From a virus (taxonomy: Duplodnaviria; Heunggongvirae; Uroviricota; Caudoviricetes), in the IMG/VR virus record IMGVR_UViG_2563366963_000007: a DNA stretch of 42,685 nucleotides, one strand, 5' to 3'. Below, in pieces: positions 33,165 through 41,501 of the stretch. Made by a program: the position numbers and the translations under genes. The notes below the pieces were generated by a model that was given only the letters and a program-made list of their open reading frames with translations, had not been told where the DNA came from and did no database searches. Within the stretch, counting starts at the first letter, position 1; each line of letters opens with the position of its first letter.

Positions 33165-33184
33165 TGGTCTTTCCTCGGTTATTT

Positions 33185-33201
33185 CACGCTGGTCAGGCGT
33201 G
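33185..33201 (-). repeat. CUGACCA-loop hairpin, copy 1
   Basis: Minus-strand RNA CACGC-CUGACCA-GCGUG, immediately after the DnaB stop and 8 nt before the next gene's ribosome-binding site. Confidence 0.6.
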
Positions 33202-33202
33202 G

Positions 33203-34645
33203 TTAAAATTCATTTGTGCGAGAATTATCGCTACGGGAATAACGTTTATTTTTTTCTGAGCGGTCGTTGGTAAGGCGATAAACCTCCTCATCGCTGATAT
33301 CAATAACTGAGCCATTTTTCATCAGGGCATAGGCTGTTCCCGATGGTCCTTCGCGGTTCAGACGTAGCAACATTTCCATGAGATTTGGGTCGGCATTTTC
33401 GTTATAAACAGCATCACGATAGAGGCCAATCCAGACATCGCAATCTTGTTCGATCTGCCCGGTATCTTTACTGTCGCTCGGGTTAGGCCGCTTATCGGCA
33501 CGTTCTTCAAGCTTTCGGTTGAGTTGCGTCAGCAGGACCACAACACAATCCAGCTCTTTTGCCAGGTTCTTCAAACCGGTTGTGATATCGCCATACGCAA
33601 TATCCCTACGCTCTGCCGATTCGGTCTTCATCAGCGTCAAATAGTCAATTGCCACCAGGCCAACCGAGCCACGCATCCGTTTAACTTTTCGACATTCAGC
33701 GACAATATGCGCAAGGGTTACACCTGCCGTGCTGTCAATCATCATGTTGGATTCGGCAATCTCCCCCGCCTTTGCTATTGCGAGACTCAATTCAGATTCA
33801 TCGTTAGGGCCAAGATAAAAAATCTCCGAATTGACCTTTGCTTCCTGCGCAACCATGCGTTCAATGAGACTTCTGTCAGTCATTTCCAGGCTAAATACCA
33901 GCGTCGGCAAACGATGATTCAGAGCAAAATGCACCGCAATTTTATTAAACGCGGCTGTCTTGCCCATTTTTGGCCGGGCACCAATAACGACCAATGAACC
34001 TCTTAACGCCTGCTTTGGTGCCATTAAGCGATCAAGGCTTTCGATTCCGAGCGTTAGTCCGGCTGCATGTGCTGGATCATTGAAACGGCGCTCAAGGTCA
34101 TCTATCCAGTCATCGACGACTTCACTTGCCGGACGCAAACCGCCCTTATGCCCGGTACGGGAATGTTCGGCCACCTGCCCAATCACTTGCTGAACGGCGG
34201 TGATCCTGTCAGTAGCAGTCATATCTGCAGGCTGGATCATAATCTCCAGACAAGAATTCAACTTTTCCACGGCATAACGAAGAATGGCTTTTTCACGTAC
34301 AATTTTCGCGTAGTTGACCATTGAGGCCGGAATCGCCGCCTTACTCATTTCAGCCAGGTATGCGAATCCCCCCACGCGCTCATACAGCCCCTTCGATTCC
34401 ATCAGTTCGGTCAGTGTTATCAGGTCAGTTGGTTTATCAGCTTGAAATAATCCTTTGATCTCCCGGTAGATAACCTGATGCGCATTGATATAAAACGTTT
34501 CCGGTTTCAGTAACGCAAATACCGCATTGGTTCTGTCGTGGTCGGTATTCAGCATCAGACAGCCCAGAACAGCCTGTTCTGCGTCAACGCTGTACAGTGC
34601 AATCGCGTTATTTATCATTTGCGCGTTCTTCCTTGACCGAAACAT
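33203..34645 (-). CDS. replicative DNA helicase (DnaB family)
   Basis: 480-aa ORF with Walker A GARPKMGKT and the characteristic DnaB N- and C-terminal domain pattern. Confidence 0.85.
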   Translation of the reverse strand: MFRSRKNAQMINNAIALYSVDAEQAVLGCLMLNTDHDRTNAVFALLKPETFYINAHQVIYREIKGLFQADKPTDLITLTELMESKGLYERVGGFAYLAEMSKAAIPASMVNYAKIVREKAILRYAVEKLNSCLEIMIQPADMTATDRITAVQQVIGQVAEHSRTGHKGGLRPASEVVDDWIDDLERRFNDPAHAAGLTLGIESLDRLMAPKQALRGSLVVIGARPKMGKTAAFNKIAVHFALNHRLPTLVFSLEMTDRSLIERMVAQEAKVNSEIFYLGPNDESELSLAIAKAGEIAESNMMIDSTAGVTLAHIVAECRKVKRMRGSVGLVAIDYLTLMKTESAERRDIAYGDITTGLKNLAKELDCVVVLLTQLNRKLEERADKRPNPSDSKDTGQIEQDCDVWIGLYRDAVYNENADPNLMEMLLRLNREGPSGTAYALMKNGSVIDISDEEVYRLTNDRSEKNKRYSRSDNSRTNEF

Positions 34646-35363
34646 AGCAGCGTTCGGTAATCAGATAATCAAGATTTTTACGCCGCCAGAATCCTCCCCT
34701 GCCATTTGGCCTGTCCTCCAGCATCCAGCGACAATTGCCACCGATAAATTCCAGATAGGCCCGCCAACGGGACTCATTGAAATTGAATTTTTTCCAGAAA
34801 GTGCGAAGGTGTTTTTTTCTGCCGTCAGTGAGGATTTTCACTGGTGGCATCTCTGGCAAAATCTCGTGATAGGTATCGAGTATCACCTGATAATTTATTC
34901 TCTGGTCGGCAGGTTGTTGGGTGTCGGCGTCAGCCGATTCACCATCAGTAATAATCTCTGTAGTATTCTCTGTAAGAATGTTTGTTGGTTTTCCACGTAC
35001 AGGCCTGGTGGTTTTCCCCTCACCTGTATGTGGTTTTTCCGCATCCTTGTATGCGGACGTAAGTAGCTGGCACAACACATCATTATCGATTTTGTAGTAC
35101 AGCCTGGCAGGCAAGCCCTGTTTACGTTCCAGCAAGACGCCGAGACCACGTAGTTTTTTGCGCGCGCCCTCCTGCTCGTATCGTGAAAGCCCTGTTTCCT
35201 CTTCCCACTCATCCTGGGTTTTATATACCCAGCCGTCGTCAGTTGTTCTGTTTGTCCAGTACGTCAACTGCGACAGAAACAATGCGGCAGTCACGCCCAT
35301 TTCAAGACGGATAAAACTTCTCTGGAAGGCTATGGGTCTATCAAGTAACGGGAGGATGTTCAT
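34608..35363 (-). CDS. replication initiation protein (O-like replisome organizer)
   Basis: 251-aa ORF directly upstream of the helicase gene; N-terminus resembles phage replication-initiator N-terminal domains. Confidence 0.55.
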   Translation of the reverse strand: MNILPLLDRPIAFQRSFIRLEMGVTAALFLSQLTYWTNRTTDDGWVYKTQDEWEEETGLSRYEQEGARKKLRGLGVLLERKQGLPARLYYKIDNDVLCQLLTSAYKDAEKPHTGEGKTTRPVRGKPTNILTENTTEIITDGESADADTQQPADQRINYQVILDTYHEILPEMPPVKILTDGRKKHLRTFWKKFNFNESRWRAYLEFIGGNCRWMLEDRPNGRGGFWRRKNLDYLITERCYVSVKEERANDK

Positions 35364-40479: not shown

Positions 40480-41045
40480 GCACTGCTATCGCTATTGCAA
40501 AAGAATATGCCAGTCTGATTGACCTGTTAGAAACCGCCGATGAACTGACGCCAGAGATGATCGCCGACACGCTTGAAGGCATGGAAGGAGAACTGGGAGA
40601 CAAACTGGACGCCATGATGGTCATCTGCCGTAATTTACAGGGCAATGCCAATACCTGCGCTGAAGAAATGTCTCGCCTGGCAACCCGTAAGACGTCCTTT
40701 GAAGGCAAGGAAAAAGCAATTCGAAAGCATATGCTCACCTGCCTGCAAGCTGCTGGCCTGGATAAACTGAAAACCGCAAAAAACACATTTACTGATGCAC
40801 AGGGGGCTATCCGGGTAATTATCGATAGCAAAGATAAGATCCCGGATGAGTATGAGGGCGTGTCACTTGTTGATGTAGAAACGGTTATTACACCAAACAA
40901 GCGAGCCATTAAAGAAGTGATTGAATCTGCGGAGGCGGTTGCCGCCGAAATACTGGCGCGTGGAGAAACACCACCAGCCGAGTTATTAAACCCGGTACCA
41001 GGCGCACATCTGGAACGCGGCGAACGGTCACTGAGGATACGCTAA
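40476..41045 (+). CDS. Gp157-like protein (partner of phage annealing proteins)
   Basis: 189-aa ORF overlapping the upstream gene by 4 nt; N-terminal pattern EYASLIDLLETADELTPEMIADTLEGMEGEL resembles the Sipho_Gp157 family as recalled. Confidence 0.45.
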   Translation: MSTAIAIAKEYASLIDLLETADELTPEMIADTLEGMEGELGDKLDAMMVICRNLQGNANTCAEEMSRLATRKTSFEGKEKAIRKHMLTCLQAAGLDKLKTAKNTFTDAQGAIRVIIDSKDKIPDEYEGVSLVDVETVITPNKRAIKEVIESAEAVAAEILARGETPPAELLNPVPGAHLERGERSLRIR

Positions 41046-41227
41046 TGCTTAAACTCACATTAAAGCGTGGTGACGCGGTTCACCTGGTACTTGCCGATGG
41101 TACCAATGGCATTATTGAAGCACGGAGCCGCTGCGAACTTGGGCTACACCTGCCAGAAAACATTAAGGTCACTCGGGAGAAATCGGCATTCACCCCACAA
41201 GAACTGATTACGCCTAATCAGAAATAA
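41045..41227 (+). CDS. small CsrA-like protein (tentative)
   Basis: 60-aa ORF; gapless alignment to E. coli CsrA (61 aa) keeps ML.LT at the N-terminus, Gly9, Gly33, Pro37 and V-x-R-E at 42-45. Confidence 0.3.
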   Translation: MLKLTLKRGDAVHLVLADGTNGIIEARSRCELGLHLPENIKVTREKSAFTPQELITPNQK

Positions 41228-41276
41228 AAACTCACCATCGCTAGCATTGCGATTCACCAGACACCGGAGGATCACA

Positions 41277-41501
41277 ATGCTGCGATGGCAACCGGGAGCA
41301 ACTCTGCTCTCCGCATTTGATATCAAAATTGGTCGACTGTCGGCCAGCGTCAGGAAACAGACTTTGACCGAGTCTGATATTGCCCGTGCCTGCCAGAAGG
41401 CAGATGACGCAATAAGCTACATAATGAGGAAAGACCATGAAAAGCGATCACGACATAATCACCAGAGAAGAAATGGTCGAGCTGACGGGAAGCCCACTTA
41501 A
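41277..41501 (+). CDS. hypothetical protein
   Basis: ATG at 41277 preceded by GGAGG; 74 aa; overlaps the next gene by 65 nt, so one of the two may be mis-called. Confidence 0.3.
   Translation: MLRWQPGATLLSAFDIKIGRLSASVRKQTLTESDIARACQKADDAISYIMRKDHEKRSRHNHQRRNGRADGKPT

What the first reader, a model, noticed from the sequence alone, without database searches (positions are those of the whole stretch)
33165..41437. Repeated GAGGAAAGACC start-associated motif, including an orphan copy
The 11-12-mer GAGGAAAGACC(A/G) lies directly before the ATG of at least four genes on both strands (33164 and 35584 on minus; 38263 and 41437 on plus), with a relaxed variant GGAGGGAAAGGAC before 31799. A further exact copy at 37828-37839 is preceded by the 8-bp hairpin but has no correctly spaced start codon; the sequence CGCTATGGAAGC then recurs at 37849 and at the true start at 37912. 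In the rightward operon the motif pairs with a CUGACCA hairpin 8-9 nt upstream. This looks like a conserved translation-initiation unit, plus a leftover or decoy copy.
Basis: seen in the sequence. Interest (0 to 1): 0.45.

Follow-up and report, generated by a model that had tools for sequence, protein, structure and literature searches.

The report
Phage early-gene start motif with hairpin
An invariant 11-base signal, usually preceded by a small RNA hairpin, marks the start of the independently translated early genes of a widespread family of enterobacterial prophages. Its lineage-specific variants suggest, but do not show, that a dedicated and still unknown factor reads it.

Summary
GAGGAAAGACC occurs 5 times against 0.02 expected. 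Four copies sit 0-1 nt before RefSeq-annotated ATGs.

The 8-mer core GGAAAGAC occurs 11 times, 10 of them in the early region. CCTGACCAGC occurs 5 times against 0 expected.

The window is an E. coli prophage found in about 9% of complete E. coli genomes. In about 160 related phage loci the same 11-mer is the top repeat. It is 99% sense-oriented, precedes at least 17 gene families, and in the two genomes checked is confined to the early operons.

Three lineage-specific variants exist (GAGGAAAGACC, GAGGCAAGACC, GAGGCAAAACC). Each genome uses one variant at nearly all copies, including non-start copies.

The upstream hairpin has a 7-nt (C)UGACC(A) loop with stems that covary and G.U but no A.C pairs, so it folds as RNA.

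The "orphan" copy is not a relic. It is kept 40-80 nt before the first leftward gene in 157 of 160 loci, with or without a start codon. The leader also carries hairpins with a GAAAGA loop.

The closest described thing is the start-associated sequences of cluster K mycobacteriophages, whose function is unknown. My best reading is an extended ribosome-binding site read by a lineage-specific trans factor. No reader was found.

The parts
33166..33176 (-). Start-associated sequence (SAS) GAGGAAAGACC, 1 nt before the ATG (33164) of the 136-aa post-helicase gene
   Evidence: The orthologous site carries the SAS in 108 loci.
33186..33200 (-). Hairpin ACGC[CUGACCA]GCGU, 9 nt upstream of the SAS and 2 nt after the helicase stop codon
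   Evidence: (present in the centroid fold, SAS-AUG unpaired)
35586..35596 (-). SAS, 1 nt before the ATG (35584) of the 74-aa gene (phrog_2465)
   Evidence: The orthologous site carries the SAS in 144 loci.
35609..35623 (-). Hairpin GCGC[CUGACCA]GCGU (can extend to UGAGCGC/GCGUUUA), directly after the ydaT stop codon
37098..37117 (+). Leader unit 1: linear CUGACA, then hairpin GCCG[GAAAGA]CGGC, about 45 nt after the pL-like promoter
   Evidence: Conserved in all three SAS lineages, including ZF40.
37147..37166 (+). Leader unit 2: GUGACA, then hairpin GAGG[GAAAGA]CUUC
37583..37603 (+). Leader unit 3: GUGACA, then an imperfect hairpin CC(A)GG[GAAAGA]CCGG that contains GGAAAGACC (37593-37601)
37614..37685 (+). 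Three hairpins with a CUGACCA loop and different stems (ACGC/GCGU 37614-37628, GAGC/GCUC 37636-37650, GGGC/GCCC 37671-37685), plus a linear GGAAAGACC at 37657-37665
37776..37827 (+). Two leader hairpins with GACCAA in the loop: HP1 37776-37799 and HP2 37804-37827. Stems covary among relatives.
37828..37838 (+). "Orphan" SAS. It is linear and has no start codon here (followed by AACG).
   Evidence: present in 157 of 160 loci; start codon in 88
37856..37886 (+). Leader hairpin HP3. The 3' arm GAUCGGCUC is constant. The 5' arm varies among relatives and here is supplied by the CGCTATGGAAGC-containing indel.
37901..37914 (+). Ordinary ribosome-binding site AAGGAG plus the ATG of the 106-aa gene, which is not an SAS. 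RNAalifold pairs AGGAG with the upstream GCUCU.
38251..38261 (+). SAS, 1 nt before the ATG (38263) of the 738-aa exonuclease-like gene. The upstream hairpin is degenerate in this lineage (CA[CUGACCU]G) but strong in relatives (GGCGC[GUGACCU]GCGCC).
   Evidence: The SAS precedes this gene in 152 of 162 sequences examined (161 loci plus the window).
41426..41436 (+). SAS directly before the ATG (41437) of the DUF4224 gene. No hairpin. It lies inside an unannotated upstream ORF (41258-41501).

Best explanation
**Shown.** The motif is an RNA-level, start-associated sequence. It is an extended Shine-Dalgarno element of the form GAGG-N-AA-R-ACC, kept single-stranded 0-3 nt before the start codon. 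It marks those early cistrons that cannot use translational coupling because they follow a gap of 30 nt or more.

In about 40% of distinct contexts it is preceded, 8-12 nt upstream, by a GC-stemmed hairpin that displays a 7-nt (C)UGACC(A) loop.

The pL-like leader carries the same two sequence elements in the inverse arrangement. There, a linear UGAC(A/G) is followed by a hairpin that displays GAAAGA. The leader also carries linear non-start SAS copies.

**Inferred.** The 7 non-SD positions are held identical in every copy of a genome, and differ between lineages, because all linear copies are read by one lineage-specific trans-acting factor. A protein is more likely than an RNA. The factor would coordinate translation, and possibly read-through or stability, of the early "restart" cistrons.

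On this reading the leader copies are working binding sites (sensor, decoy or loading sites), not relics. The sign of the control, activation or repression, is unknown.
For: **Enrichment.** 5 copies against 0.02 expected. The core 8-mer occurs 11 times against 1.24.

**Coupling to starts.** All four start copies precede annotated ATGs of genes that follow gaps of 30-209 nt. Overlapping genes use other ribosome-binding sites.

**Orientation and location.**
- 618 of 624 GGAAAGACC copies in 79 loci are in the sense of the local operon.
- Copies are confined to the early operons in the window and in the whole ZF40 genome.

**Spread across genes.** At least 17 gene families carry it. The 738-aa gene carries it in 152 of 162 sequences that were chosen by that gene, not by the motif.

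**Concerted lineage variants.**
- Start copies share the genome's variant in 364/365, 416/428 and 12/12 cases.
- Linear non-start copies follow suit (241 to 1; 47 to 6).
- The DUF4224 copy has no flanking homology that could drive gene conversion, yet it conforms.

**The hairpin is RNA.**
- 180 of 450 contexts have it, against 13 of 450 shuffled.
- At the stem position that was not used for selection there are 36 G.U and 0 A.C pairs.
- The covariation score is 0.525 against 0.165, with 0 of 500 shuffles as high.

**Accessibility.**
- The SAS is unpaired in predicted folds.
- Its flanks pair less than shuffled flanks do: 128 of 134 have no stem.
- 109 of 201 non-start copies sit in stems of 4 bp or more, against 3 of 201 shuffled, with 33 different stems.

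**Not simply the best ribosome-binding site.** The late genes of the window, including the major capsid gene, use other sites.
Against: - No reader was identified. Pfam and PHROGs give no RNA-binding annotation for the 10 early proteins scanned.
- The two structure predictions gave nothing usable.
- No complementary RNA exists within 10 kb on either side. The RprA-like seed does not covary with the SAS.
- The leader hairpins keep GAAAGA even in lineages whose SAS is GAGGCAAGACC. One reader for both forms is therefore not required by the data.
- 60% of SAS contexts lack the hairpin.
- The lineage variants may represent only two or three evolutionary events.
- All evidence is comparative. Nothing shows an effect on translation.
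Confidence: 0.45

Rival explanations
1. It is a plain strong ribosome-binding site with an insulating 5' hairpin and no dedicated reader. Identity among copies would reflect common descent, purifying selection for an unstructured A-rich initiation region, and spread by recombination when gene cassettes are inserted at the motif.
For: - GAGG sits at optimal spacing, and the SAS region is unpaired in predicted folds.
- The motif occurs only where de novo initiation is needed.
- An accessory 94-aa gene is inserted exactly between two SAS copies. The cassette therefore acts as a recombination junction.
- Other ribosome-binding regions, such as ydaT's GCGACAGGAGACGC, are also conserved across the three phages compared.
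Against: - Many sequences make equally good ribosome-binding sites, yet 7 non-SD positions are invariant in hundreds of copies.
- Those positions switch together between lineages. This includes a copy with no flanking homology.
- About half of the GGAAAGACC copies in A-type loci have no start codon (245 of 624), and the best-studied one, the orphan, is positionally conserved.
- The late genes of the window do not use it.
Confidence: 0.25
2. The modules are mainly transcription antitermination sites, either N/nut-like or RNA-only put-like. On this view the hairpins and UGACA/GAAAGA elements load a factor onto RNA polymerase so that it reads through the leader terminators, and the resemblance to a Shine-Dalgarno sequence at start sites is secondary.
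For: - Leader units look like lambda nut. CGUUCUGA matches boxA CGCUCUUA at 6 of 8 positions. GCCCG[GAAAGA]CGGGC resembles boxB GCCCU[GAAAA]AGGGC.
- The CUGACCA/CUAACCA loop resembles the phi21 boxB hexaloop CUAACC (PMC12550061).
- The units lie upstream of two terminator-like hairpins in the leader: 37495-37524, and 37750-37768, which is followed by a U-run on the + strand in relatives but not in this window.
- The phage has a Q-type late antiterminator but no annotated N.
- A conserved arginine-rich motif is present in the post-helicase protein.
Against: - There is no boxA consensus in the sense orientation, and no N-like arginine-rich ORF next to pL.
- Only UGACA, not boxA, is common to the units.
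- There are many sites per operon rather than one.
- The start-type copies are locked to start codons within 0-3 nt. Antitermination does not explain that.
- The pR-like operon has no GAAAGA hairpin.
Confidence: 0.15
3. It is a target of a sequence-specific endoribonuclease or decay pathway, analogous to T4 RegB cleaving GGAG in early Shine-Dalgarno sequences. That would shut off early mRNAs as a class.
For: - The signal is class-specific, confined to early transcripts, and overlaps the SD.
- Copies without start codons would also be cleavage sites.
Against: - No nuclease homologue was found among the 10 early proteins scanned.
- Nothing in the sequence distinguishes cleavage from binding.
Confidence: 0.08
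4. It is a DNA-level site. It could be an asymmetric protein-binding site oriented with transcription, like the stoperators of mycobacteriophage L5, or it could be purely a recombination junction.
For: - The orientation bias and intergenic location would also fit stoperators.
- A gene insertion is bounded by the cassette.
Against: - The hairpin shows G.U but no A.C pairs, and compensatory changes.
- The distance to the start codon is fixed.
- The operators at the divergent promoters are a different sequence, TTACAAA..TTGTAA.
- Leader copies sit in hairpin loops whose stems covary.
Confidence: 0.05

Closest known systems
[quoted passage not shown] 2011, PMC3203893). Their function was still unknown in 2025 (PMC12699233).
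   Same: - A short asymmetric repeat that contains an SD core plus conserved positions unable to pair with the 16S 3' end.
- It lies a few nt before start codons, mostly ATG.
- It has one orientation.
- It is restricted to the non-structural half of the genome.
- It precedes genes that follow larger intergenic gaps, and genes of different families.
- About half the copies have a second upstream element.
- Consensus differences are specific to subclusters or lineages.
   Different: - The sequence is unrelated (GGGATAGGAGCCC against GAGGAAAGACC), and so are the host phylum and phage family.
- There are fewer copies per genome (5-10 against 11-19).
- The upstream element here is a short RNA hairpin with compensatory changes. 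Pope et al. found no support for RNA pairing of the 17-bp ESAS repeats and favoured DNA binding.
- Here there are also conserved non-start copies and an inverse isoform in a long leader.
Lambdoid nut sites: boxA plus boxB bound by N. The boxB loops are lambda GAAAA/GAAGA, P22 GACAA and phi21 CUAACC.
   Same: - GC-stemmed hairpins display purine-rich GAAAGA loops or U-turn-type CUGACCA/CUAACCA loops in early transcripts.
- A linear element lies just upstream.
- The position is downstream of a pL-like promoter and upstream of terminators.
- Lambda N is also known to repress translation of its own mRNA through nutL (own knowledge).
   Different: - Hexa- and heptaloops rather than pentaloops.
- No boxA consensus and no N homologue.
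- Many copies per operon.
- The start-type copies are fused to ribosome-binding sites.
T4 RegB (cleaves GGAG in early SD sequences) and T4/RB69 RegA (translational repressor of many early mRNAs). Cited from own knowledge.
   Same: A phage-encoded factor acts on the translation initiation regions of a whole temporal class of mRNAs.
   Different: - RegB and RegA sites are short or degenerate. Here an 11-mer is invariant.
- No homologue of either protein was detected.
- The phage here is temperate, not virulent.
PeSL mobile regulatory cassettes of T4-type phages. Also the 26-bp SAS-like repeat of Citrobacter phage Mordin (PMC4611695).
   Same: - Near-identical intergenic cassettes flank accessory ORFs and mark insertion junctions.
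- Mordin shows that SAS-like repeats have been noticed in an enterobacterial phage.
   Different: - PeSLs carry a sigma-70 early promoter plus a terminator-like stem-loop. No promoter is evident here.
- Mordin's repeat is unrelated in sequence and uncharacterised.
Stoperators of mycobacteriophage L5. Cited from own knowledge, and mentioned in PMC3203893.
   Same: Asymmetric 13-bp sites in short intergenic spaces, oriented with transcription.
   Different: - Stoperators are DNA sites identical to the repressor's operator.
- Here the operators are a different sequence, and the evidence points to RNA.

Membership tests
SAS/ESAS (cluster K mycobacteriophages) | Short asymmetric repeat within a few nt upstream of predicted start codons | tested here: met
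   0-3 nt to ATG/GTG in 226 of 372 distinct GGAAAGACC contexts. The commonest spacing is 1 nt (A|ATG, 126). The four window copies precede annotated starts.
SAS/ESAS (cluster K mycobacteriophages) | One orientation only, restricted to the non-structural part of the genome | tested here: met
   618 of 624 copies are in the sense orientation. No exact copy lies in window 1-31000. All 9 ZF40 copies lie within 1.8-10.9 kb of 48.5 kb.
SAS/ESAS (cluster K mycobacteriophages) | Contains an SD core, plus conserved positions that cannot pair with the 16S rRNA 3' end | tested here: met
   GAGG plus the invariant AAAGACC. The only 16S complementarity is nt 986-993, 7-8 nt long. That is no better than 28% (7 nt or more) and 6.8% (8 nt or more) of shuffled sequences.
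SAS/ESAS (cluster K mycobacteriophages) | Consensus GGGATAGGAGCCC with at most 2 mismatches (the operational definition in PMC3203893 and PMC12699233) | tested here: not met
   The sequence is different. This is an analogue, not a homologue.
SAS/ESAS (cluster K mycobacteriophages) | ESAS: a pair of imperfect 17-bp inverted repeats just upstream, without RNA-type compensation | tested here: not met
   Here the stem is 4-6 bp with a 7-nt conserved loop. It shows compensatory changes and G.U pairs.
Lambdoid nut site / N antitermination | boxB hairpin with a GNRA-like or U-turn loop | tested here: inconclusive
   The loops are GAAAGA and CUGACCA/CUAACCA, against lambda GAAAA/GAAGA and phi21 CUAACC (PMC12550061). 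This is a resemblance only.
Lambdoid nut site / N antitermination | boxA (CGCUCUUA / UGCUCUUUA) a few nt upstream of boxB | tested here: not met
   There is no sense-strand boxA. The first leader unit matches at 6 of 8 positions. The other units share only UGACA.
Lambdoid nut site / N antitermination | N-like protein with an N-terminal arginine-rich motif, encoded next to pL | tested here: not met
   No such ORF exists, and the first gene encodes a 106-aa protein without a basic stretch. An arginine-rich motif does exist in the post-helicase protein, but that is only a lead.
Lambdoid nut site / N antitermination | One promoter-proximal site per early operon | tested here: not met
   There are at least 8 modules in the pL-like transcript and 2 far downstream in the pR-like operon.
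L5-type stoperators | Site identical to the repressor operator at the early promoter, acting as DNA | tested here: not met
   The operator-like repeats at 36410-36460 and 37020-37045 are TTACAAA..TTGTAA.
T4 RegB / RegA regulons | Presence of a regB or regA homologue | tested here: not met
   No such family was hit among the 10 early proteins scanned. The other proteins of the window were not scanned.
CsrA-binding sites | Essential GGA in every site | tested here: not met
   The C-type SAS GAGGCAAGACC lacks GGA and keeps all other features. The CUGACCA loops also lack GGA.

The most novel reading that the evidence does not exclude
A temperate-phage lineage encodes its own translational and antitermination "address code". 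Under this reading:
- A phage RNA-binding factor recognises a bipartite RNA module made of UGAC(C)A plus G[GNAARA]C.
- When the second element is closed in a hairpin (pL leader), the module loads or titrates the factor.
- When it is open and fused to GAGG (start sites), the factor sets the translation of every independently initiated early cistron.

The candidate for the factor is the arginine-rich post-helicase protein.

The multi-copy leader, which ends in an RprA-like Hfq module, would then act as a phage-borne sponge or sensor in the manner of CsrB.
Probability: 0.2. Interest if true: 0.8.

Novelty: new variant of a known kind. Interest (0 to 1): 0.62.

Why it matters
- **An old puzzle becomes testable.** Start-associated sequences have been an unexplained feature of mycobacteriophage genomes since 2011. 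An analogous system is described here in a prophage carried by about 9% of complete E. coli genomes and in the culturable phage ZF40. It is better resolved, with an RNA hairpin that shows covariation, three lineage-specific variants and conserved non-start copies. The question can therefore be attacked with standard E. coli genetics: fusions, variant swaps and pull-downs.
- **Possible new layer of control.** If a dedicated reader exists, it would be a class-specific post-transcriptional control layer in lambdoid-type early operons.
- **Practical value.** The 11-mer is also a reliable marker for calling true start codons and small genes in this phage family.

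Tried and rejected
- **Extended pairing with 16S rRNA.** The only match is nt 986-993 (UGGUCUUG). It is not above chance, and the GAGGCAAAACC variant breaks it. That stretch is part of helix 32, paired with 1215-1221 (own knowledge).
- **An antisense or anti-SAS RNA.** Reverse-complement copies are 6 of 624. The RprA-like GUCUUUGCC is only 6-nt complementary, is absent from C-type phages, and does not covary in ZF40. The C4 and isrK RNAs carry no complement.
- **CsrA.** GGA is lost in C-type SAS.
- **Hfq ARN repeats.** There are at most two triplets in A-type and one in C-type (own reading of the sequence).
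- **A sigma-70 promoter in the cassette.** No -10 element is present, and the spacing is variable.
- **The hairpin as an intrinsic terminator.** There is no U-run.
- **A terminator-like hairpin inside the 136-aa gene (33042-33059).** It is not conserved as RNA. The conservation is of the peptide MNAGARARSRS.
- **Structure of the 136-aa protein.** AlphaFold gave pLDDT 37.5, which is unusable. There was no PDB sequence hit.
- **Structure of the 74-aa protein.** The model is confident (pLDDT 90.8), but no fold match reached E of 0.001 or better.
- **The one genome-contig scan.** I spent it on a pattern with four Ns. Only about 6 relevant enterobacterial loci came out. They show that both A- and C-type variants occur within the Yersiniaceae, so the variant follows the phage lineage rather than the host family. 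This evidence is weak.
- **The relaxed variant before 31799.** It could not be evaluated, because no divergent homologues were found.
- **A motif-independent count of SAS at core genes by regular expression.** The test was badly designed and I discarded it.

Full report
**What the window is.** The 42.7-kb window is an integrated temperate phage. The leader region 36900-38300 is 99-100% identical in 416 E. coli chromosomes and present in 476 of 5426 complete genomes.

It sits between yecA and tRNA-Leu/Cys/Gly. The early region has a lambdoid layout.
- On the minus strand: a cro-like gene, a ydaT/cII-like gene, a 74-aa gene, an O-like gene, dnaB, a 136-aa gene and further genes.
- On the plus strand: a cI-like gene, a promoter-like site at 37020-37048, an untranslated leader of about 850 nt, a 106-aa gene, a 738-aa exonuclease-like gene, a gp157-family gene, a 60-aa gene, a DUF4224 gene and int.

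Only four isolated phage records are full relatives: Pectobacterium phage ZF40 (two records) and "Stenotrophomonas" phages BUCT708 and BUCT709.

**The observation.**
- GAGGAAAGACC occurs 5 times against 0.02 expected.
- The core GGAAAGAC occurs 11 times against 1.24 expected. Ten copies lie in 33167-41926, always in the sense of the local operon.
- CCTGACCAGC occurs 5 times against 0.00 expected.
- Four 11-mers lie 0-1 nt before annotated ATGs.
- Those four genes follow an intergenic gap (38, 39, 30 and 209 nt), so they cannot be translated by stop-start coupling. The overlapping genes of the same operons, and all late genes, use other ribosome-binding sites.

**Conservation.** I fetched relatives by the 738-aa protein, not by the motif. 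That gave 80 loci at 49-100% identity and 80 more around ZF40 at 39-100% identity.
- The 10-mers of the motif are the most repeated words in nearly every locus.
- An unbiased count of 11-mers ending 0-3 nt before ATG gives the same answer in the second set.
- 618 of 624 copies in 79 loci are sense-oriented.
- The motif precedes at least 17 protein families.
- It precedes the 738-aa gene in 152 of 162 sequences, the 74-aa gene in 144, the post-helicase gene in 108 and the DUF4224 gene in 88.
- In the complete ZF40 genome all nine copies lie in the early 1.8-10.9 kb.

**Lineage variants.** Three variants exist: GAGGAAAGACC, GAGGCAAGACC and GAGGCAAAACC.
- Within a genome, start-associated copies are almost pure: 364/365, 416/428 and 12/12.
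- Linear copies without a start codon follow the genome's variant: 241 to 1 in A-type and 47 to 6 in C-type.
- Accessory genes carry the variant of the genome they sit in.
- The DUF4224 copy shares only about 14 nt with the other copies. Gene conversion is therefore an unlikely homogeniser there.
- Both A- and C-type occur in prophages of the Yersiniaceae. This weakly argues that the variant follows the phage lineage rather than the host.

This concerted pattern is my main reason to infer a specific reader. The caveat is that the pattern may reflect only two or three ancestral switches.

**The hairpin.**
- In 180 of 450 distinct SAS contexts, against 13 of 450 shuffled, a hairpin with a 7-nt loop NN(G/A)ACCN lies 8-12 nt upstream. 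The loop is CUGACCA in 109.
- The stems differ: GGCGC/GCGCC, CACGC/GCGUG, ACGG/CCGU, GAGC/GCUC, GCUUU/AAAGC.
- At the stem position that was not used for selection there are 88 G-C, 33 A-U, 36 G.U and 0 A.C pairs.
- The covariation score is 0.525 against 0.165 in shuffles, with 0 of 500 as high. The inner three pairs were selected for pairing; the outer two were not.
- In the window, five CUGACCA loops are carried by four different stems.
- Predicted folds form the hairpin and leave the SAS and AUG unpaired.

The hairpin therefore folds in the sense RNA. Its loop recalls the phi21 boxB hexaloop CUAACC (PMC12550061), and CUAACCA is itself one of the variants seen here.

**The orphan copy and the leader.**
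- A linear SAS lies 40-80 nt before the short-form start of the 106-aa gene in 157 of 160 loci.
- It is followed by an out-of-frame upstream ORF in 74 loci, an in-frame N-terminal extension in 14, and no start codon in 69. The no-start class, which includes this window, has AACG in 60 loci.
- Two hairpins with GACCAA loops and covarying stems precede it.
- A third hairpin follows it. Its 3' arm (GAUCGGCUCUG) is constant and its 5' arm varies. In the window the 5' arm comes from the indel that contains the duplicated CGCTATGGAAGC.
- RNAalifold also offers pairing of GCUCU with the AGGAG of the true ribosome-binding site. That would be a possible switch, but it is untested.

The orphan is therefore a maintained leader element, not a relic.

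**A second isoform.** Non-start GGAAAGAC copies are mostly closed into stem-G[GAAAGA]C-stem hairpins.
- 109 of 201 distinct contexts have a stem of 4 bp or more, against 3 of 201 shuffled. There are 33 different stems.
- Start copies avoid pairing: 128 of 134 have no stem, which is fewer stems than in shuffled flanks.
- 113 of 134 such hairpins are directly preceded by UGAC(A/G), against 0 shuffled.
- Relatives show the composite [GGGC-AUGACCA-GCCC]UGACA[GCCGG-GAAAGA-CCGGC].

The early transcripts thus carry one bipartite module in two arrangements: hairpin-UGACCA plus linear SAS at starts, and linear UGACA plus hairpin-GAAAGA in the leader.

The GAAAGA hairpins keep their loop in all three lineages (231 in 83 loci, 70 in 77, and 3 in 2). 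No GCAAGA-loop hairpins exist. They do not co-vary with the linear SAS, which counts against a single reader for both forms.

The leader units resemble lambda nut. The boxA match is 6 of 8. The hairpin GCCCG[GAAAGA]CGGGC resembles GCCCU[GAAAA]AGGGC. The units also lie upstream of two terminator-like hairpins. However, there is no boxA consensus and no N-like ORF, and there are many copies per operon.

**Search for a reader.** This was negative.
- No complementary RNA was found.
- 16S complementarity is at chance level.
- CsrA and Hfq motifs are not conserved across the variants.
- Pfam and PHROGs give no RNA-binding annotation.
- The post-helicase protein has a conserved arginine-rich segment (MNAGARARSRS), conserved as peptide and not as RNA. 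A 58-aa minimal form exists. Its structure could not be modelled.
- The 74-aa protein models well but matches no known fold. Its ITW/ITY motif tracks the SAS variant: 79 of 79 in A-type against 57 of 63 in C-type. This is confounded by phylogeny.

**Literature.**
- The motif strings occur in no phage paper of the searchable library.
- The closest described class is SAS/ESAS of cluster K mycobacteriophages. Its function was still open in 2025.
- A SAS-like 26-bp repeat was noted in passing in Citrobacter phage Mordin.

**Verdict.**
- Shown: a sense-RNA element coupled to start codons, specific to the early operons and conserved across the family, with a structured partner and a leader isoform.
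- Inferred, with confidence about 0.45: a lineage-specific trans-acting reader that coordinates the early cistrons.
- Rivals: a plain strong ribosome-binding site with cassette recombination (0.25), primarily antitermination (0.15), an RNA cleavage signal (0.08), and a DNA site (0.05).

Noticed in passing
window 31357-31554 (-): Rfam finds a C4 antisense RNA (75 bits), isrK (80 bits) and the c4-a1b1 target element (53 bits), all upstream of an ORF6N antirepressor-like gene (30517-31305). This is a P1/P7-type c4-ant immunity module inside a lambdoid-organised prophage.
   Followed up: no
window 37480-37524 (+): The pL-like leader contains the 3' half of the sRNA RprA, UGCUGUGUUUAGUCUUUGCC plus a terminator. 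The Rfam score is 37.4 bits, below the gathering threshold. It is present in 74 of 83 A-type relatives, with an invariant seed-like part and covarying terminator stems, and is almost absent from C-type phages. It may be a phage-borne RprA-like sRNA or terminated leader.
   Followed up: partly
window 37390-37470 (+): A tRNA-like T-arm and acceptor fragment (CCCGGTTCGATTCCGGGCGCCCA). The tRNA-Sec model gives only 19 bits and ARAGORN finds no tRNA. It lies on an indel of about 300 nt found in only some relatives.
   Followed up: no
window 37912-38232 (+): The 106-aa protein (phrog_2479) ends in ...DELPY, and its relatives end in D(I/V)PF. This resembles the SSB C-terminal tail (own knowledge). 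The gene precedes the 738-aa exonuclease-like gene, so the protein may be a recombination accessory factor.
   Followed up: no
window 32754-33164 (-): The post-helicase protein has a family-wide N-terminal motif DDGxxW..VIxWxMNAGARARSRS. Its C-terminal domains are interchangeable, and in some relatives it is only 58 aa long. The conservation is at the peptide level, not in RNA structure.
   Followed up: partly
window 41258-41501 (+): An unannotated ORF reads through the SAS at 41426 (coding ..M-R-K-D..) and overlaps the start of the DUF4224 gene. The upstream sequence varies with a codon-like pattern among relatives.
   Followed up: no
window 37839-37869 (+); L016, L020: The repeated 12-mer CGCTATGGAAGC belongs to an indel of about 31 nt. 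Phages whose proteins are only about 54% identical share this indel, so it is a mosaic allele. It supplies the 5' arm of leader hairpin HP3.
   Followed up: partly
L038, L053, L061 and others (between the 106-aa and 738-aa genes): An accessory 94-aa gene is inserted exactly between two SAS copies and brings its own CUAACCA hairpin. Gene cassettes in this family are bounded by the motif.
   Followed up: partly
L002 (OM816834) and OM816835: The phages named Stenotrophomonas BUCT708 and BUCT709 are ordinary members of this otherwise enterobacterial prophage family. They are about 73% identical to the window over the matched parts of the early region, which cover about a quarter of the query.
   Followed up: no
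window 36105-36135 (-): Between cro and ydaT lies an AU-rich inverted repeat, UGAUUAagcgUAAUCA, followed by AUUUUUA. It looks both like a YdaT-type operator (own knowledge) and like a weak terminator. The ydaT SD sits in the loop of GCG[ACAGGAGA]CGC, and this sequence is conserved in BUCT708 and ZF40.
   Followed up: no
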